IMG/VR virus record: IMGVR_UViG_3300045988_027175
Origin: a virus
Reading direction: 5' to 3' (one strand)
DNA length: 37,225 bases
This document shows positions 2,137 through 23,317 of the stretch, one piece after another; within the stretch, counting starts at the first letter, position 1; every line of letters begins with the position of its first letter. Both the position numbers and the translations under genes were made by a program. The notes under the pieces are model-generated. The model did no database searches and had not been told where the DNA came from. It saw only the letters and a list, made by a program, of their open reading frames with translations.

Positions 2137-3737
2137 TGCAGTTAAGAGATTATCAACAAAAGGCTCATGATGCCATATTCACAGAGTGGGAAGAGAAGGG
2201 AACTCAAAGAACCCTTCTCGTTCTTCCCACTGGCTGTGGAAAAACAATAGTGTTTGCAAAAGTGGCTGAGGATTGTGTTAAAAGAGGAGATAAGGTTCTT
2301 ATTTTAGCACATAGAGGCGAACTGCTAGAACAGGCATCTGACAAAATTAAGAAAGTGACAGGACTTGGCTGTGCAGTCGAAAAAGCTGAACAGACTTGTA
2401 TTGGCAATTGGTTTCGAATCGTTACTGGAAGTGTTCAAACACTACAGAGCGATAAAAGATTGTCTAAATTTTCAAGAGATTATTTTGACACAATAATTAT
2501 AGATGAGGCTCATCACGTTTTAAGTAATGGCTACCAGAAAGTACTAGAGTATTTCAACAGTGCGAAAGTTCTTGGAGTAACTGCTACTCCTGACAGGGGA
2601 GACATGAAGAATTTAGGCTCTTACTTTCAAACATTGGCATATGAATACACTTTACCAGAAGCGATAAAAAGTGGATATCTAGTTCCAATTAAGGCATTGA
2701 CTATACCACTGACTTTGGATTTATCGAGCGTTTCAATGAGCGCTGGAGACTTCAAGGCAAGTGATATTGGTAGCGCACTAGATCCGTATCTTGAAGGGAT
2801 TGCCAGTGAAATGGAAAAGTACTGCAAGAATAGAAAAACAGTTGTATTTCTTCCACTGATTTCAACATCTCAAAAGTTTGTTGAAATTTTAAATAAACAT
2901 GGTTTCAAAGCCACAGAAGTAAATGGCAATTCAAAAGATAGAAATGAGATTACAAAAGACTTTGCAGAAAATAAATACAATGTCCTTTGCAACTCTATGT
3001 TATTAACAGAAGGATGGGATTGTCCTGACGTTGATTGTGTCATTGTATTAAGGCCAACAAAAGTAAGAAGTCTTTATTCTCAGATGGTTGGAAGAGGAAC
3101 AAGGCTATCACCTCAAACAGGAAAAAAAGATTTACTTTTATTAGATTTTCTTTGGCACAGTGAAAGACATGAATTATGTCATCCAGCCTCACTTATCTGT
3201 AATAGTGATGAAGTCGCTAGAAAAATGACTAAGAACTTAGAAGAAAATGTTGGAGTTGAGATGGATATTCAAGAGGTTGAAGAAGAAGCCTTGAAGGATG
3301 TCCAAGAAGAAAGAGAAAAAGCACTTGCTGATCAGCTAGAAGAAATGAGAAAACGCAAGAAGAAGCTAGTGGACCCTTTGCAGTATGCAATGAGCATACA
3401 GGCTGAAGACTTGCAGAATTACGTTCCTTCTTTCGGTTGGGAGTGTGCTCCAGCGAATGAAAAACAATTGAAATACTTAGAAGCACATGGAATCGAGTCT
3501 AATGAAGTTCCTAATGCTGGATATGCTTCAATGCTGATTGACAGGTTAAAGTTAAGAAGTAAAGAAGGACTAGCAACTCCGAAGCAAGTGAGATTCCTTG
3601 AAAGAAAAGGATTTAGAAATGTTGGAACTTGGAAGTTCAAAGATGCTAGTTCTATGATTTCTAGAATTTCCGCAAATAACTGGAGACTTCCAAAAGGAGT
3701 ACAAGCTTCTACTTATAAGCCAGAAGGAGTTGAATAA
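2136..3737 (+). CDS. Superfamily 2 DEAD/DEAH-box DNA helicase
   Basis: Motif I LPTGCGKT, motif II DEAHH, motif III TATP, motif VI QMVGRGTR. Confidence 0.9.
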   Translation: MQLRDYQQKAHDAIFTEWEEKGTQRTLLVLPTGCGKTIVFAKVAEDCVKRGDKVLILAHRGELLEQASDKIKKVTGLGCAVEKAEQTCIGNWFRIVTGSVQTLQSDKRLSKFSRDYFDTIIIDEAHHVLSNGYQKVLEYFNSAKVLGVTATPDRGDMKNLGSYFQTLAYEYTLPEAIKSGYLVPIKALTIPLTLDLSSVSMSAGDFKASDIGSALDPYLEGIASEMEKYCKNRKTVVFLPLISTSQKFVEILNKHGFKATEVNGNSKDRNEITKDFAENKYNVLCNSMLLTEGWDCPDVDCVIVLRPTKVRSLYSQMVGRGTRLSPQTGKKDLLLLDFLWHSERHELCHPASLICNSDEVARKMTKNLEENVGVEMDIQEVEEEALKDVQEEREKALADQLEEMRKRKKKLVDPLQYAMSIQAEDLQNYVPSFGWECAPANEKQLKYLEAHGIESNEVPNAGYASMLIDRLKLRSKEGLATPKQVRFLERKGFRNVGTWKFKDASSMISRISANNWRLPKGVQASTYKPEGVE

Positions 3738-10642: not shown

Positions 10643-11888
10643 AGTTAGTTTGAAATCTACTATTGGTCCGGCTTTCTATGAAGTTCATAAGCATGTAAAA
10701 AACAATGACTACACGCATTATTGGTTAAAAGGTGGCCGTGGTTCTTTAAAGTCCTCTTTTATAGGTGTTGAGATACCTCTAGGCATTATGAGAGATGCTC
10801 AGCGAGGTGTTATGAGTAACGCTGTTATCATGAGAAGAGTAAAAGACACTCTCAGAGATTCAGTATATGAACAGATTAAGTGGGGCATCTATAAGTTAGG
10901 TGCTCAAGATGATTGGTTAATACCTGAGTCTAAATTAAAAATGACTTATATGCCAACAGGTCAGCAGATAATATTCAAGGGTGCCGATGAACCTAAAAAA
11001 ATGAAGTCAACAAAGGTCCATATAGGTTATGTTAAATACGTATGGTATGAAGAATGTGATGAATTCGAAACATATGACAAGATAACCAATATTAATCAGT
11101 CGCTTCTGCGTGGTGGACATGAGTATTGTGTCTTTTATTCTTTCAACCCTCCTGAATCACAAAGAAATTGGTGCAACAGGCAAGTTCTAGTAAAAAGGGA
11201 TGATACATATGTCTCCCATACAACTTATTTACAGGCGCCACCTGAGTGGCTTGGGGAGCAGTTTCTAATTGAAGCAGAGCATACTAAGAAAACAAATATT
11301 GAAAAATACAATCATGACTATCTAGGCGAAGTAACTGGTACAGGTAGTGAGGTTTTCACAAACCTTGATATTAGAGAAATCACAAAAGAAGAAATTGATG
11401 TATTCGATAGATTAAAATTCGGACTAGACTTTGGTTATGCTGGTGACCCTTTGGCTTTTATCAAAGCAAATTATGATAAGACGCGCAGACGTCTTTTTAT
11501 TTTTGATGAAGTATATGGCACTAGGCTGTCAAATGCTGATGCCGTTAAACTTATCAAAGAGATTAACCCGCTTAACGATCAGGTCACTGCCGATTCAGCT
11601 GAACCAAGAACTATAAACGAGTTCAAACTGTTAGGATTAAAAATAACAGGCGCCAAGAAAGGCCCTGACAGTGTAAAAAACGGTATTAAGTTCTTACAGG
11701 ACTTAGAATCAATCATCATAGATCCTGTTAGATGTCCTAATGCTTACAGGGAATTTAATGAATATGAGATTGAAAAAGATAAGGACGGTAACCTCAGAGG
11801 CGACTTTCCTGATAAGAATAACCACGCTATTGATGCAACTAGATACGCCATGGAGTACGAAATACTTCAGAAAAAGTGGACTTTATAA
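10635..11888 (+). CDS. terL: Terminase large subunit, PBSX/XtmB type (headful packaging expected)
   Basis: Walker A-like WLKGGRGSLKSS, Walker B VWYEECDE, and a C-terminal nuclease Asp block NNHAIDATRY. Confidence 0.9.
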   Translation: MNKVSLKSTIGPAFYEVHKHVKNNDYTHYWLKGGRGSLKSSFIGVEIPLGIMRDAQRGVMSNAVIMRRVKDTLRDSVYEQIKWGIYKLGAQDDWLIPESKLKMTYMPTGQQIIFKGADEPKKMKSTKVHIGYVKYVWYEECDEFETYDKITNINQSLLRGGHEYCVFYSFNPPESQRNWCNRQVLVKRDDTYVSHTTYLQAPPEWLGEQFLIEAEHTKKTNIEKYNHDYLGEVTGTGSEVFTNLDIREITKEEIDVFDRLKFGLDFGYAGDPLAFIKANYDKTRRRLFIFDEVYGTRLSNADAVKLIKEINPLNDQVTADSAEPRTINEFKLLGLKITGAKKGPDSVKNGIKFLQDLESIIIDPVRCPNAYREFNEYEIEKDKDGNLRGDFPDKNNHAIDATRYAMEYEILQKKWTL

Positions 11889-11901
11889 AGGAGACAACTA
11901 C

Positions 11902-12216
11902 ATGGAATTTAATATTAATGGAATCAACTGGACAATGGAATATGCCGACAGCGATAAGGACTTTTTAAACGACGGTGATAACACTATCCTAGGCCTTACG
12001 AAGTTTCTAGAACAAACAATCTATATTCGAAAAGGAATGTCTAAGGAGTTAACAAGAAGAACAGTGATACATGAATTATGCCACTGTTTTTTATTTTCTT
12101 TAGGCTTCTCAATGGATTGCTATACAGAAGAAACAATGTGCGATTTATTTGGAAATTATGCTGATCATATTGTTGGTTTAGCTGATGACTTTGAAAAAGA
12201 GGTGATTGAATGCTGA
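11902..12216 (+). CDS. Small HExxH protein, ImmA/IrrE (M78)-like zinc-metallopeptidase motif
   Basis: SD AAGGAG before ATG 11902. TILGLTKFLEQTIYIRKGMSKELTRRTVIHELCHCF. The N-terminal extension in the track (11740) lies inside terL. Confidence 0.55.
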   Translation: MEFNINGINWTMEYADSDKDFLNDGDNTILGLTKFLEQTIYIRKGMSKELTRRTVIHELCHCFLFSLGFSMDCYTEETMCDLFGNYADHIVGLADDFEKEVIEC

Positions 12217-19280: not shown

Positions 19281-19877
19281 ATGGCGAATGAAATCATTCC
19301 TTCAAGTGGGATTACAGCCAAAACACCTGAAAACATTATGTTAGGTGCTGGAACTATTCATAAAGGCTTGAAATATGAGGGTGGTAAATGGAACTTTGTA
19401 GAATCATTATTTTGTGCTACATCAGGCGGTGGTTCAGTAAGTTTTTCTCCTGAGCTATTAAACTTAGATATTGATGGAGCAACAGTCAAATTCGTTGGTG
19501 GCACTCTAAAAGTCGGAGAAAGCGCCAAGATGAAATTTAAAATGGCAGAAATCACTCCTGATTTTATTAAAAAGTCTATCTTTGCTAAAGAAGCGGAAAA
19601 CAGCACGGCAACAGGATATACAGAATTAGTGTCTAAGCCACAGATTGAGACAGGTGACTATTATGAACATCTAGCGTATGTCGGAAAGAAGATTGATGGA
19701 ACTCCAATCATTGTTATTTTTGATAATGCTTTATGTACATCAGGACTTTCCGTTGAAGGCGAAAATAAAAAGATGGTAGTACCTGAAGCAGAATTTGAAT
19801 GCTATGCAGAATTAGAACAGGCTGATAAGAATATACTACCTTATCACATTTATTACCCTAATGCGGTAGCTGCATAA
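19281..19877 (+). CDS. Major tail protein
   Basis: 198 aa immediately upstream of the chaperone pair and the tape measure gene. SD GGGAGG upstream. Confidence 0.65.
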   Translation: MANEIIPSSGITAKTPENIMLGAGTIHKGLKYEGGKWNFVESLFCATSGGGSVSFSPELLNLDIDGATVKFVGGTLKVGESAKMKFKMAEITPDFIKKSIFAKEAENSTATGYTELVSKPQIETGDYYEHLAYVGKKIDGTPIIVIFDNALCTSGLSVEGENKKMVVPEAEFECYAELEQADKNILPYHIYYPNAVAA

Positions 19878-20304: not shown

Positions 20305-20604
20305 ATGGATTTGGTCTACAAGAGATATTCCAACCCCATGGAACTGATTGATAACATGATCTCTTTTTCTAATTTTTCAGAGTTCATTTCCGAGCTTGCT
20401 GACAATGTGTCAGATGAAAAACTATATGATATTTGGAAATCAAAAGTTTATGACAAGTCATTTGCTGACTTTAAAAATGAAATGATGGCTAAGTGGAAGA
20501 AAAACACAGGAATTGAAACGTCTGAAACAATGACAGATGAAGAGATGGAAACAACTATAAATGACTCCTATGAAATTCTTAACAGTTTTAATCCTAATCT
20601 TTAA
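20305..20604 (+). CDS. Tail assembly chaperone partner (gpT-like position)
   Basis: Lies in the -1 frame relative to 19907-20290, but has its own SD AGGAG at 20289-20293. Confidence 0.5.
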   Translation: MDLVYKRYSNPMELIDNMISFSNFSEFISELADNVSDEKLYDIWKSKVYDKSFADFKNEMMAKWKKNTGIETSETMTDEEMETTINDSYEILNSFNPNL

Positions 20605-20625: not shown

Positions 20626-21243
20626 ATGTTAGAATTATTTAAACTCTTTGGTATTATCGGACTGAAAGGTGTCGATAAGACAAAGAAAGATTTAAAAGAT
20701 ACAACTAACACAGCAAAAGACGAATCGAGCAAACTAGAAAAGCACGTTAGCAAAATAGGAGAACTCGCTCCTAAGATTGGAAAATTAGCAGTTAAGGGAG
20801 TTGCTGCAGCAGGTGCTGCAATAGGTACTATTACTAAGTTTGCTGTATCTTCTTATTCGGAGTATGAGCAGTTAGCTGGTGGTGTCGAAACCTTATTTGG
20901 TGCTCAGGGCATGAGCCTAAAGAAGTACGCTAAATCAATCGGCGAGACTGTCGGACAAGCGAAAGGAAAATATGATCAGTTGATACAGGCACAGACGGAC
21001 GTTATGAATAATGCAAAAGTAGCATATAAGACGGCTGGAATGAGTGCGAATGATTATATGAACACTATTACTTCTTTCGCTGCAGCATTAAAGCAATCAA
21101 CAGCCAATGAGACAGAAGCGGCTAAGGTTGCTAATATGGCTGTTATTGATATGGCTGATAATGCGAATAAGATGGGTACCAACATGGAAGATATCCAAAA
21201 CGCTTATCAGGGGTTCTCAAAGCAGAACTACACAATGTTGGAT
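20626..21243 (+). CDS. Tape measure protein, exon 1 (206 aa); joins 21506-23317 after removal of the intron
   Basis: Ends ...NAYQGFSKQNYTMLD directly before an in-frame TAA. That motif continues at 21506. Confidence 0.85.
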
Positions 21244-21505
21244 TAACAAAATAGTTCAACTAAAACCTCGTGAAAACGGTGGAACTCTTAGAAAAGACAA
21301 TACCGTGCCAAGACTAGAAATAGTAAGGTGTAACGACTATCGAAAGCACATAATAAATGTTATGAAAGTGAGTAGAGTACAATCAAGTGATTGGAAGTGC
21401 GAGGGAACGATTATATCGTTCAAGAGATAGTCTACTCTTTATAGTGATATAAAGCAGTTCATAAGAGAACGATGTAAGATTAACGACCTTACATGAATAC
21501 AAAGG
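21244..21505 (+). ncRNA. Group I self-splicing intron, ORF-less, 262 nt (IA-like)
   Basis: P1 pairs exon GUUGGAU with guide GUUCAAC, with a U.G wobble at the splice site. Omega-G at 21505. P3, P7, P8 and P9 pairings are present, with a GUGA loop on P9. Removal restores a conserved tape-measure motif. Confidence 0.8.
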
Positions 21506-23317
21506 AATTTAAAATTGGGATACGGTGGTACTAAGTCAGAAATGGAGCGACTTTTACAGGACGCCGAAAAACTGACAGGTATACATTATGATATTAATAA
21601 TTTAAGTGATGTATACAAAGCAATTAACGCTATTCAAGGCAAACTCGGAATAACTGGTACTACTGGCGAAGAAGCGATGAAAACCATCGACGGTGCTATG
21701 AAGATGACAAAAGCGTCATGGGATAACCTTTTAACAGGTTTAGCAGACCCTAAACAGGCAGTCGGACCGCTTATCAGTGAGTTCACTACCAGCTTAGGAA
21801 CTCTCGCTAAAAACGTGACTCCAAAAATCAAGGAAGTATTTAATGCACTACCTAATGCACTAATACAGATAACTCCGCAATTGATGAATACGATTATTGA
21901 TTTAGCACCATCATTAATCCTTGCAGCTATCAATTTAGTGGCTGGGCTAATCGGTGCGCTCCCAGGAATATTGGAACCGATTTTTTCAGAATTAACAGAT
22001 ATATTCAATAAGATTCCTCAATTCTTGAAAGGAAATGCGAATATAGTAGATGGTTTCCTAAAATCTATTGACAGTGGGAAGCCTTCAATAGCTGCAAAAG
22101 GAATAGAGATGATAACGGCGCTTACTAACGCTATTATAAATAGTCTTCCTATTATTATTCAGATAGGCGCGAAAATAATTGACAGTTTAGGAAGTTCTAT
22201 ATCTTCAAATATGCCTTCGTTCTTGTCGAGATTTCTTGATATTCTAATTCAGCTATCACAGATGATATTAACTAATCTTCCCATCTTAGTAGGTGTCGGA
22301 ATGAAATTAATCTTTTCTTTAGTTCAAGGGTTAATGAGTTCACTTCCTACTTTAATATCTAAAGTGCCTACTATCATAGCGAACCTAGCAGATGCATTTT
22401 CTAACAGTGCACAGACTATTTTTGTGTGGGGAATTAAGATTATTGCGGAAATCATTAAAGGATTAGTAATGGCAATTCCTTCATTAATCGCGAATATCCC
22501 TAAAATTATCTATGCCATTTTTGCAGTATGGAATGCAATAAATTGGTGGAACTTAGGAAAAGGCCTTATTAGTGGAATCGCTAAAGGTATCAGTGGTATG
22601 GGTGGCTCGCTTGTCAACACGGCAAAGAACCTATTTAACAGTCTAAAAAGTCATGTATCAAGCATTTTCAACAACATCAAGAATGTAATTCAAAGTCCTA
22701 TTTTTAGCGCTAAGACTAAAGTATTGGCGATTATAGGAGAACTGCAGAACGGTGTTAGAGTTGGGTTTAATTTTATCAAGTCACATGCCTCAAGTGTTTG
22801 GAATGGTATCAAGAGCGCTATCATGTCTCCAATGAGTGCTGCTGCTAATTTTGTGAAAGCCATCATCAATAAGATTAAAGGATTTTTTAATTTTAAGATT
22901 TCTTGGCCTCATATTCCGTTACCTCATTTTAATATCAAACCTAACGGCTGGAACGTTGGGGATTTATTAAAGGGTAAAATCCCATCACTAGGCATTAAAT
23001 GGTATGCGCAAGCGATGGATAACCCAATGATCTTGGATGCTCCAACTATCTTTGGAATGTCTAATGGTCATATGTTAGGTGCTGGAGAAGCAGGTGCTGA
23101 AGTTGTGGCTGGAAGAGATACATTAATGAAGATGATTAATCAGGCATCTAACAATAGAGCTGATGAAATCCTAGAAGCGTTACACAGAATAATCGCTTTA
23201 TTGTCTGATGAAGATAGAATGCACGATATTATCGTAAAAGCTTTAAATGACGGCTCTTTCGTTGTTATGTTAGATGGCAGAGAAGTAGGAAGGATTGTGA
23301 GAAAATATGCTGGATAA
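21506..23317 (+). CDS. Tape measure protein, exon 2 (603 aa)
   Basis: Begins NLKLGYGGTKSEMERLLQDAEKLTG. Long hydrophobic, helical middle. This frame is open only from 21497. Confidence 0.85.
   Translation, partial: NLKLGYGGTKSEMERLLQDAEKLTGIHYDINNLSDVYKAINAIQGKLGITGTTGEEAMKTIDGAMKMTKASWDNLLTGLADPKQAVGPLISEFTTSLGTLAKNVTPKIKEVFNALPNALIQITPQLMNTIIDLAPSLILAAINLVAGLIGALPGILEPIFSELTDIFNKIPQFLKGNANIVDGFLKSIDSGKPSIAAKGIEMITALTNAIINSLPIIIQIGAKIIDSLGSSISSNMPSFLSRFLDILIQLSQMILTNLPILVGVGMKLIFSLVQGLMSSLPTLISKVPTIIANLADAFSNSAQTIFVWGIKIIAEIIKGLVMAIPSLIANIPKIIYAIFAVWNAINWWNLGKGLISGIAKGISGMGGSLVNTAKNLFNSLKSHVSSIFNNIKNVIQSPIFSAKTKVLAIIGELQNGVRVGFNFIKSHASSVWNGIKSAIMSPMSAAANFVKAIINKIKGFFNFKISWPHIPLPHFNIKPNGWNVGDLLKGKIPSLGIKWYAQAMDNPMILDAPTIFGMSNGHMLGAGEAGAEVVAGRDTLMKMINQASNNRADEILEALHRIIALLSDEDRMHDIIVKALNDGSFVVMLDGREVGRIVRKYAG

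What the first reader, a model, noticed from the sequence alone, without database searches (positions are those of the whole stretch)
21244..21505. An ORF-less 262-nt group I intron splits the tape measure gene
The TMP frame stops at TAA 21244-21246 right after ...NAYQGFSKQNYTMLD. It resumes in another frame, open only from 21497, with NLKLGYGGTKSEMERLL at 21506. In Firmicutes siphovirus TMPs these stretches form one contiguous conserved motif (..QNYTMLDNLKLGYGGTK..). So 262 nt, which is not a multiple of 3, must be removed at the RNA level.

Group I hallmarks can be read directly:
- The 5' exon ends in U21243, which makes the U.G wobble of a 7-bp P1 between exon GUUGGAU (21237-21243) and internal guide GUUCAAC (21254-21260).
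- The last intron base is G21505 (omega-G).
- P3 is CCUCGUG (21266-21272) paired with UGCGAGG (21398-21404), followed by an A-rich J3/4 (AAAA).
- P7 is AGACUA (21311-21316) paired with UAGUCU (21428-21433).
- P8 is GAACGAU (21405-21411) paired with AUCGUUC (21415-21421), abutting P3'.
- J8/7 is the purine-rich AAGAGA.
- P9 is CUUUAUA/UAUAAAG (21437-21454), capped by the GNRA loop GUGA.
- A further hairpin, AUGUAAG/CUUACAU, lies at 21472-21494.
- About 80 nt lie between P7 and P3', as in subgroup IA (P7.1/P7.2).

There is no homing endonuclease ORF. The ORF-track entries 20626-21246 and 21515-23317 are therefore two exons of one 809-aa protein. Introns in a tail-length-determining structural gene are not a standard annotation and would be missed by gene callers.
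Basis: partly seen in the sequence, partly recalled or inferred. Interest (0 to 1): 0.8.

Follow-up and report, generated by a model that had tools for sequence, protein, structure and literature searches.

The report
Self-splicing intron inside phage tail-length gene
A 262-base self-splicing RNA (a group I intron with no gene of its own) interrupts the tail tape measure gene of a temperate phage from human metagenomes; the call is correct, but introns of this same family at this same spot in tape measure genes have been known since phage r1t, so it is a new example, not a new kind.

Summary
The finding is correct. The tape measure (TMP) frame stops at TAA 21244-21246 and resumes at 21506. Removing exactly 21244-21505 (262 nt) gives one 809-aa TMP.

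- **Boundaries.** Near-identical phages without the insert read ...ATGTTGGAT|AACTTAAAATTGGG... without a break, which fixes the boundaries to the base.
- **Family match.** Rfam's group I model (RF00028) scores 51.2 bits against a cut-off of 50, but only when a short stretch is scanned. Two whole-window scans missed it.
- **Structure.** In an 11-sequence alignment with related phage introns (r1t, Javan271, MissG1, IPP23, StB12 and others), 93% of proposed pairs form, against 44% or less in slid controls. 45 of 75 pairs show compensatory changes.
- **Correction.** True P7 is 21335-41 with 21426-32.
- **No endonuclease.** None is encoded in the intron or found elsewhere in the window.
- **DNA-level movement.** An intron-less sibling phage differs from the window at 34 positions in 3.6 kb. 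31 of them lie between -6 and +357 of the insertion site, the mark of a gene conversion.
- **Hot spot.** The motif QNYTMLDNLKLGYGGT takes inserts at four positions within 21 nt.

Group I introns in TMP genes are already documented (B. cereus prophages, 2008), and I read one directly in the phage r1t record. This is a new member of a known kind, of modest interest.

The parts
20626..21243 (+). TMP exon 1 (206 codons, ends ...QNYTMLD; last base U21243)
   Evidence: ORF list. PHROG tape-measure profiles end exactly where exon 2 begins: phrog_58 at position 461 then 462, phrog_3981 at 170 then 171.
21244..21505 (+). ORF-less group I intron, 262 nt, subgroup IA-like, r1t family
   Evidence: RF00028 scores 51.2 bits, E 3e-12. 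Intron-less alleles L013, L017, L018, L022, L023 and L025 are contiguous exactly at these borders. Covariation.
21506..23317 (+). TMP exon 2 (603 codons plus stop, begins NLKLGYGGTK)
   Evidence: The spliced junction peptide aligns in one piece with uninterrupted TMPs in 365 phage records.
21244..21246 (+). In-frame UAA formed by the first three intron bases; translation of unspliced RNA stops here
   Evidence: Read directly from the sequence.
21237..21260 (+). P1: 5' exon GUUGGAU (21237-43) pairs with internal guide GUUCAAC (21254-60); U21243.G21254 wobble at the 5' splice site
   Evidence: Direct reading. The guide changes with the exon in relatives inserted 15 nt downstream (ACUGGGU/GCUCAGU, ACUCGGU/GCCGAGU): 98% paired, 4 of 7 pairs changed on both sides (helix 1).
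21266..21272 (+). P3 5' strand CCUCGUG
   Evidence: Pairs with 21398-21404: 98.7% of cells paired, 3 pairs with compensatory change (helix 2).
21398..21404 (+). P3 3' strand UGCGAGG
   Evidence: helix 2.
21276..21306 (+). P4 (21276-81 with 21301-06) enclosing P5 (21286-89 with 21294-97)
   Evidence: P4 is 100% paired with 4 of 6 pairs compensatory (helix 3). P5 changes UA to CG within the lineage.
21308..21328 (+).
   Evidence: 100% paired and every pair covaries (helices 6-7). Strand comparison. The r1t HNH ORF sits in this loop.
21335..21341 (+). P7 5' strand GACUAUC (crosses P3 as a pseudoknot)
   Evidence: Rfam alignment. Invariant in all 11 relatives.
21426..21432 (+). P7 3' strand GAUAGUC, preceded by J8/7 AAGA (21422-25)
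   Evidence: helix 8: 6 of 7 pairs never vary, 96% paired.
21347..21370 (+). P7.1 (21347-49 with 21368-70, and 21350-54 with 21359-63)
   Evidence: A21348-U21369 becomes G-C, and U21354.G21359 becomes C-G, in same-site variants. Alignment to distant relatives is poor here (helices 9-12).
21380..21393 (+). P7.2 hairpin CAAUC-AAGU-GAUUG
   Evidence: 100% paired, 4 of 5 pairs compensatory (helix 13).
21405..21421 (+). P8 hairpin GAACGAU-UAU-AUCGUUC
   Evidence: Rfam alignment. Its length varies in relatives: 6 of 7 pairs change on both sides, but only 69% of cells are in register (helix 14).
21437..21454 (+). P9 hairpin with GUGA loop
   Evidence: 100% paired, 3 pairs compensatory (helix 15).
21457..21470 (+). 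P9.1 hairpin GUUC-AUAAGA-GAAC
   Evidence: 100% paired, 2 pairs compensatory (helix 16).
21472..21494 (+). P9.2 hairpin AUGUAAG...CUUACAU
   Evidence: All 7 pairs change on both sides across relatives (helix 17), and 5 vary while staying paired among same-site variants.
21505..21505 (+). Terminal G (omega-G), last intron base
   Evidence: Border fixed by intron-less alleles. In all 11 interrupted loci resolved to a single insert, the 5' exon can be read as ending in U and the insert as ending in G.

Best explanation
Bases 21244-21505 are an ORF-less group I (subgroup IA-like) self-splicing intron of the r1t/Javan271 family. It sits between the Asp and Asn codons of the conserved TMP motif QNYTMLD|NLKLGYGGT.

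**Shown:**
- the family match
- the fold
- the exact borders
- the presence/absence polymorphism
- the recombination tract beside the insertion site

**Inferred:**
- The late transcript folds so that the internal guide GUUCAAC pairs with the exon end GUUGGAU.
- An external guanosine bound in P7 attacks after U21243.
- The freed exon end then attacks after G21505, joining the exons.
- Ribosomes then make one 809-aa tape measure protein. Unspliced RNA terminates at the UAA formed by the first three intron bases.
- At the DNA level the intron spreads or is lost by gene conversion between co-resident related phages. Because it encodes no endonuclease, this relies on general recombination or on an endonuclease supplied in trans.
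For: **Borders and reading frame.**
- Frame break and restoration.
- Exons abut on TMP profiles: phrog_58 at 461/462, phrog_3981 at 170/171.
- The junction peptide aligns uninterrupted in 365 phage records and in 143 of 171 fetched loci.
- Six close relatives (83-100% identical in exon 1) lack exactly these 262 nt.

**Ribozyme.**
- RF00028 matches over the full model at 51.2 bits, above the cut-off of 50.
- DNA similarity to many phage introns, including r1t and Tuc2009.
- The 13-helix model with the P3/P7 pseudoknot gives 93.1% paired cells against 44% or less in slid controls. 45 of 75 pairs have compensatory changes, and 0 of 500 shuffles reach this.
- Among 6 variants of this very intron, all but one variable paired position stay paired.

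**Mobility.**
- Window against intron-less L025: 31 of 34 differences fall between -6 and +357 of the site.

**Transcription.**
- No terminator-like site lies between the exons.
Against: - There are no RNA or protein data, so splicing is not demonstrated.
- The Rfam score is only just above the cut-off, and two whole-window scans missed the match because of filter loss.
- P2 is absent: only 5 nt separate P1 and P3.
- P10 is weak, at most 4 bp (AAAU with AUUU).
- An SD-like AAAGGA (21501-06) followed by TTG 21515 could in principle let exon 2 be translated on its own.
- No endonuclease is present, so the mobility step is inference.
Confidence: 0.93

Rival explanations
1. The ribozyme is a decayed, non-splicing relic. 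The TMP is made as two polypeptides: 206 aa ending at TAA 21246, and 600 aa from TTG 21515.
For: - Gene callers produce exactly these two ORFs in every contig.
- AAAGGA at 21501-06 lies 8 nt upstream of TTG 21515.
- The Rfam score is marginal.
Against: - Sibling phages encode one uninterrupted TMP across the same codons, as do 365 phage records.
- The core P3-P8 has no substitutions among same-site variants, and peripheral helices change only by compensatory pairs. That points to ongoing selection for the fold.
- The intron-carrying phage recurs as apparently complete genomes in many samples.
Confidence: 0.04
2. The break is bridged during translation (a programmed frameshift or ribosome bypass), or it is a sequencing or assembly artefact. 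No RNA splicing is involved.
For: The frame change (+1 net) and the stop codon at the break are also features of recoding sites.
Against: - 262 nt is far beyond any known bypass (general knowledge: T4 gene 60 skips 50 nt).
- The stretch folds as a group I core with covariation.
- It is identical in independent assemblies from different samples.
Confidence: 0.01
3. The intron is real and splices but is immobile and only inherited vertically. The presence/absence pattern reflects precise losses, for example by recombination with spliced cDNA or with an intron-less phage, and not gains.
For: - No endonuclease is found in the intron or in the window.
- Intron-less L013 has the same flanks as intron-plus alleles, differing only at +3.
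- Tourasse & Kolsto regard ORF-less TMP introns as not mobile (PMC2504315).
Against: - The L025/window tract shows that a recombination event exchanged the intron state together with 360 nt of flank. The data do not give its direction, so gain and loss fit equally well.
- The same ribozyme family sits at two different positions of the motif and in unrelated genes (hydrolase, DNA polymerase) of unrelated phages. That requires past transposition to new sites.
Confidence: 0.3

Closest known systems
Group I intron of Lactococcus phage r1t (ORF40/ORF41/ORF42; van Sinderen et al. 1996, cited in PMC4177764) and its copies in P335-type phages 28201, 50901, 62501 and C41431
   Same: - Same ribozyme family: 78% identity over the 3' half, and nhmmer E = 1e-52 and 1e-17 for its two parts.
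- Same host gene and same protein motif: r1t ORF40 ends ...QNYTMLDNLKLG.
- Same helices, including P7.2, P9, P9.1 and P9.2.
   Different: - r1t is inserted 15 nt further downstream (GGU|UAU).
- Its internal guide is GCUCAGU instead of GUUCAAC.
- It carries an HNH endonuclease ORF (ORF41) in the P6a loop; the window intron has a GAAA tetraloop there.
Second intron of Streptococcus phage Javan271 (MK448723), and the introns of phages MissG1 and IPP23
   Same: - Javan271 is the best database match: 69% identity over 93% of the intron.
- All are ORF-less ribozymes in the same TMP motif.
- MissG1 is already annotated as ncRNA, with RF00028 at 69 bits.
   Different: - They sit after NLKLG, not after D.
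- Javan271 also has a first, HNH-carrying intron 24 nt upstream.
TMP-IVS1/2/3 group I introns of Bacillus cereus-group prophages (Tourasse & Kolsto 2008, PMC2504315)
   Same: - Group I IA1/IA2 introns inside prophage TMP genes, several of them ORF-less.
- Related introns retargeted to different sites through P1 changes, and different introns sharing one site. The same pattern is seen here.
   Different: They lie in a different TMP family: no Bacillus record matched the junction peptide. No sequence comparison with them was made here.
Classical phage subgroup IA introns (T4 td/nrdB/nrdD, SPO1 DNA polymerase, Twort orf142, Tuc2009 capsid gene)
   Same: - P7.1/P7.2 insert between P7 and P3', A-rich joining regions, U.G at the 5' splice site and a terminal G.
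- Tuc2009 and the T4-like Aeromonas phage DNA polymerase introns give direct blastn hits.
   Different: - Most classical examples lie in nucleotide-metabolism or replication genes.
- This one has no recognisable P2.

Membership tests
Group I intron (Rfam RF00028) | Covariance-model score at or above the curated gathering score | tested here: met
   51.2 bits against 50, E 3e-12, full model 1-253, on a 451-nt scan. The margin is small. Whole-window scans returned nothing. The expected E-value for the whole window would still be about 1e-10, so this is filter loss.
Group I intron (Rfam RF00028) | Conserved core P3-P8 with the P3/P7 pseudoknot, supported by covariation | tested here: met
   P3 98.7%, P4 100%, P6/P6a 100% and P7 96% paired. 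P7 is invariant. 45 of 75 pairs are compensatory, and slid controls give 44% or less.
Group I intron (Rfam RF00028) | P1 formed by an internal guide sequence, with a U.G pair at the 5' splice site | tested here: met
   GUUGGAU with GUUCAAC, and U21243.G21254. The guide covaries with the exon in relatives at the neighbouring site (helix 1).
Group I intron (Rfam RF00028) | Terminal guanosine (omega-G) at the 3' splice site, with exact excision restoring the host ORF | tested here: met
   G21505. The borders are fixed unambiguously by intron-less alleles, and the ORF is restored.
Group I intron (Rfam RF00028) | Guanosine-dependent self-splicing | not testable with these tools
   Needs in vitro transcription with GTP and Mg2+, or RT-PCR.
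Subgroup IA | Extra helices P7.1/P7.2 between P7 and the 3' strand of P3 | tested here: met
   A 56-nt insert (21342-21397) holds two hairpins. P7.2 is 100% paired with 4 of 5 pairs compensatory. P7.1 is supported by an AU-to-GC change. Assignment to IA1, IA2 or IA3 was not attempted.
Subgroup IA | P2 between P1 and P3 | tested here: not met
   Only UAAAA (21261-65) separates P1 from P3, as in the r1t-type relatives.
Mobile (homing) group I intron | Intron-encoded homing endonuclease | tested here: not met
   No ORF lies within the intron, and the two overlapping ORFs have no Pfam match. No HNH, GIY-YIG or LAGLIDADG protein was found among the window ORFs scanned.
Mobile (homing) group I intron | Presence/absence polymorphism at one site, with co-conversion of flanking exon sequence | tested here: met
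   Intron-plus and intron-minus alleles occur in phages 95-100% identical in exon 1. 31 of 34 differences between the window and L025 lie within -6..+357. The direction of transfer is unknown.
Tail tape measure protein | Profile match and position between the tail chaperone genes and the distal tail protein gene | tested here: met
   phrog_6900 1e-66, plus phrog_991 and phrog_58. Neighbours are the major tail protein at 19281 and Dit at 23307. No Pfam family matches.

The most novel reading that the evidence does not exclude
The motif QNYTMLDNLKLGYGGT is a hot spot for intron insertion, with inserts at four positions within 21 nt. r1t-family ribozymes have hopped between two of these positions by changing only their internal guide.

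On this reading, ORF-less copies such as this one are mobilised in trans by the HNH endonucleases that neighbouring introns of the same hot spot encode (collaborative homing). Alternatively, they persist because their insertion destroys the target of those endonucleases.

The clean 363-nt conversion tract between the window and L025 would then be a natural record of such an event.
Probability: 0.25. Interest if true: 0.55.

Novelty: new member of a known kind. Interest (0 to 1): 0.3.

Why it matters
**Annotation.**
- The phage's TMP should be annotated as one 809-aa protein. TMP length sets tail length, so the two-ORF call misstates it.
- Default Rfam scans of whole contigs miss this intron. 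Similar split TMPs in metagenomic phage catalogues are probably under-annotated.

**Biology.**
- The locus adds one insertion position to a TMP motif that takes inserts at four nearby positions.
- It also offers a matched pair of natural phage genomes, with and without the intron, that differ almost only in a 363-nt tract beside the site. That pair is useful for studying how endonuclease-less introns move.

None of this changes current understanding of group I introns.

Tried and rejected
**Searches that found nothing or were inconclusive.**
- Whole-window Rfam scans, at gathering threshold and at E <= 0.01, found nothing. Only the 451-nt scan recovered the intron.
- A multi-locus Rfam scan likewise missed L012 and L021, which carry this same intron.
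- Megablast of the TMP region and of 25 kb of the window against GenBank phages found no close relative.
- Pfam has no family for the spliced TMP.
- The 232-nt (L020) and 212-nt (L146) inserts at neighbouring positions could not be shown to be group I introns with Rfam.
- The r1t paper itself is not in the library. Its intron is cited only second-hand, and its position is my own reading of the sequence.

**Host identification failed.**
- The nearest genome hit for exon 1 is Streptococcus minor at 51%.
- The amidase is nearest to Agathobaculum phages at 48%.
- No tRNA genes are present.

**An error of my own.** My first covariation count used one bracket type for P3 and P7, which cross, and gave false low values for both. 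It was redone with a pseudoknot notation.

**Readings rejected.**
- Frameshift or bypass, and an assembly artefact (see the rival explanations).
- An intein: the insert is not a multiple of 3 and starts with a stop codon.
- A second copy of the intron in the window: the nhmmer profile finds only 21238-21509.

Full report
**1. The observation**

The ORF 20626-21246 ends ...NAYQGFSKQNYTMLD followed by TAA 21244-46. A different frame, closed by TGA 21494-96, opens at 21497 and reads IQR-NLKLGYGGTKSEMERLL, with Asn starting at 21506. Deleting 21244-21505 (262 nt) gives an open 2430-nt frame of 809 codons plus the stop.

**2. The two ORFs are one gene**

- On PHROG tape-measure profiles the two pieces abut exactly. 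Exon 1 ends at phrog_58 position 461 and exon 2 starts at 462. For phrog_3981 the positions are 170 and 171.
- A 121-aa peptide spanning the proposed junction aligns in one piece with uninterrupted TMPs in 365 of 379 matching phage records, at up to 74% identity.
- Of 171 related loci fetched from phage records, IMG/VR, GTDB genomes and metagenomes, 143 run straight through the junction.
- The decisive evidence comes from six IMG/VR phages whose exon 1 is 83-100% identical to the window (L013, L017, L018, L022, L023, L025). They lack the insert and read ...ATG(T/C)T(G/C/A)GAT|AA(C/T)TT(A/G)AA....
- The first and last intron bases (T, G) differ from the neighbouring exon bases (A, T). The borders 21244 and 21505 are therefore unambiguous.

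**3. It is a group I intron**

- A short-range Rfam scan gives RF00028 over the full model at 51.2 bits (cut-off 50), E = 3e-12.
- Two whole-window scans found nothing. The score would still be highly significant at that search size, so the speed filters lost the match. A multi-locus scan also missed L012 and L021, which carry this same intron.
- blastn links the 262 nt to 182 phage records. Many of the matches fall in genes annotated as split or next to homing-endonuclease genes: r1t, Tuc2009, T4-like Aeromonas phage DNA polymerases, AR9/PBS1, StB12.

I aligned the window intron with two same-site variants and eight relatives: Javan271 intron 2, L171 intron 2, MissG1, IPP23, r1t with its ORF removed, StB12, crAss-like cr116_1 and an Acinetobacter phage. 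I tested the following model in window coordinates.

| Helix | 5' strand | 3' strand |
|---|---|---|
| P1 | 21237-43 | 21254-60 |
| P3 | 21266-72 | 21398-404 |
| P4 | 21276-81 | 21301-06 |
| P5 | 21286-89 | 21294-97 |
| P6 | 21308-09 | 21327-28 |
| P6a | 21313-16 | 21321-24 |
| P7 | 21335-41 | 21426-32 |
| P7.1 | 21347-54 | 21359-70 |
| P7.2 | 21380-84 | 21389-93 |
| P8 | 21405-11 | 21415-21 |
| P9 | 21437-43 | 21448-54 |
| P9.1 | 21457-60 | 21467-70 |
| P9.2 | 21472-78 | 21488-94 |

- 93.1% of cells form standard pairs, against 34-44% when partners are slid by 1-3 columns.
- 45 of 75 pairs show changes on both sides, and no shuffle out of 500 reaches any observed measure.
- An earlier count was wrong for P3 and P7 because these helices cross and need separate bracket types.
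- Among the 30 copies of this very intron now in hand (6 sequence variants), substitutions avoid the core. At paired positions all but one preserve pairing: P5 UA to CG, P6a AU to UA, P7.1 AU to GC, and five positions of P9.2.

**4.

- The Rfam alignment and the comparison with relatives put the P7 5' strand at GACUAUC 21335-41. It is invariant in all 11 sequences.
It is the P6a hairpin with a GAAA loop, which is where r1t carries its endonuclease ORF.
- The insert between P7 and P3' is therefore 56 nt. It still forms P7.1 and P7.2, the subgroup IA hallmark.
- There is no P2: 5 nt separate P1 and P3. P10 is at best 4 bp.

**5. No endonuclease**

The intron has no ORF of its own. The window is a complete-looking temperate siphophage genome with replication, packaging, head, tail, lysis and lysogeny modules. 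No HNH, GIY-YIG or LAGLIDADG protein was found among the ORFs scanned. A profile of the intron family finds a single copy in the window.

**6. Evidence that the intron has moved at the DNA level**

- Presence is polymorphic among phages 95-100% identical in exon 1. L012, L014, L015, L016, L019 and L004-L011 carry it; L013, L017, L018 and L025 do not.
- With the intron removed, the window and L025 differ at 34 of 3,618 positions. 31 of these lie between -6 and +357 of the insertion site. There are none from -1782 to -7 and none from +358 to +1500.
- This is the footprint of a gene conversion that exchanged the intron state together with adjacent exon sequence. The data do not say whether it was a gain or a loss.
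- The enzyme responsible is unknown. A trans-acting endonuclease or plain homologous recombination are both inferences.

**7. A hot spot**

Eleven interrupted loci could be resolved to a single insert, and Javan271 and L171 were read by hand. Together they show four insertion positions within 21 nt of the motif.

| Position | Loci |
|---|---|
| ACGAU\|G | L059, L131, L139, L141; first introns of Javan271 and L171, both with an HNH ORF |
| GAU\|AAY | this intron and its variants |
| AACCU\|N | L063, L146 |
| GGU\|UAY | r1t, MissG1, IPP23, L020; second introns of Javan271 and L171 |

- At every position the 5' exon can be read as ending in U and the insert as ending in G.
- Javan271 and L171 carry two introns separated by a 24-nt mini-exon.
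- The r1t-type ribozyme occupies two of the positions, with matching changes in its internal guide: GUUCAAC for exon GUUGGAU, and GCUCAGU for exon ACUGGGU.
- The L020 and L146 inserts are not recognised by Rfam, so what they are is open.

**8. Comparison with what is known**

- Tourasse & Kolsto (2008) described IA1/IA2 group I introns, several without an ORF, at three sites of the TMP gene in B. cereus-group prophages. They described the same two patterns seen here: similar introns at different sites through P1 changes, and different introns at one site (PMC2504315).
- The r1t intron is cited to van Sinderen et al. 1996 (PMC4177764); that paper is not held in the library. My own reading of the r1t record shows that its intron interrupts the same TMP motif 15 nt downstream.
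- MissG1 already carries an ncRNA feature there.
- Introns in other phage structural genes are also documented (PMC3706429).
- This item is therefore a new member of a known kind. No record in the phage collection is closer than 69% to it, and none of the literature I read describes the D|N position.

**9. Verdict**

- Confidence that this is a functional group I intron yielding an 809-aa TMP is about 0.93. Splicing itself is inferred.
- Interest is 0.3.
- The host remains unidentified. It is probably a Bacillota member of the human microbiota.

Noticed in passing
L002 (Javan271) 2082-2971 and 2996-3293; L171 about 1983-2832 and 2856-3180: Two group I introns sit in tandem in one TMP gene, separated by a 24-nt mini-exon (G)TTAGATAACTTAAAACTGGGT. 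The first carries an HNH ORF. The second is the closest database relative of the window intron.
   Followed up: partly
L020 2134-2365; L146 2049-2260; L063 2112-2858: Inserts of 232, 212 and 747 nt at neighbouring positions of the same motif, each with boundaries that can be read as U...G. Rfam does not recognise the L020 insert (15 bits, partial) or the L146 insert; L063 gave no hit in a multi-locus scan that also missed known copies of the window intron. L020 is 92% identical to the window in exon 1 yet carries a different insert at a different position.
   Followed up: partly
window 1-37225 versus window 21150-21600: The Rfam match is lost by the speed filters when the whole 37-kb window is scanned, both at gathering threshold and at E <= 0.01. 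It is found at 51.2 bits when 451 nt are scanned. Routine contig-wide scans would miss introns of this family.
   Followed up: yes
window 21501-21517: AAAGGA (the last five intron bases plus the first exon base) lies 8 nt before TTG 21515. It looks like a ribosome-binding site plus start codon, which explains why gene callers report a 600-aa second ORF. Intron-less alleles have no such signal.
   Followed up: no
L172 (StB12) 981-1160 and 1459-1730; L174 (Acinetobacter phage) 1498-1717, 2030-2129 and 2528-2686: The same ribozyme family occurs two or more times in a staphylococcal phage peptidoglycan hydrolase gene annotated as three CDS, and in an Acinetobacter phage DNA polymerase gene annotated as three CDS plus an HNH gene. 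The family therefore crosses the Gram-positive/Gram-negative boundary.
   Followed up: no
window 11740-12216: A 158-aa ORF (phrog_1233, function unknown) overlaps the last 149 nt of the terminase large subunit gene in another frame and ends 7 nt after the portal gene starts at 12210.
   Followed up: no
window 20305-20604: The ORF just upstream of the TMP, in the tail-chaperone position, matches phrog_1294, which is labelled 'peptide methionine sulfoxide reductase'. That label is probably misleading for a tail assembly chaperone.
   Followed up: no
L182 (IMGVR_UViG_643886110_000004): One intron-carrying contig has an IMG/VR name that looks like it derives from an isolate-genome identifier, not a metagenome. 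If so, it could reveal the host. I could not resolve the identifier with the tools available.
   Followed up: no
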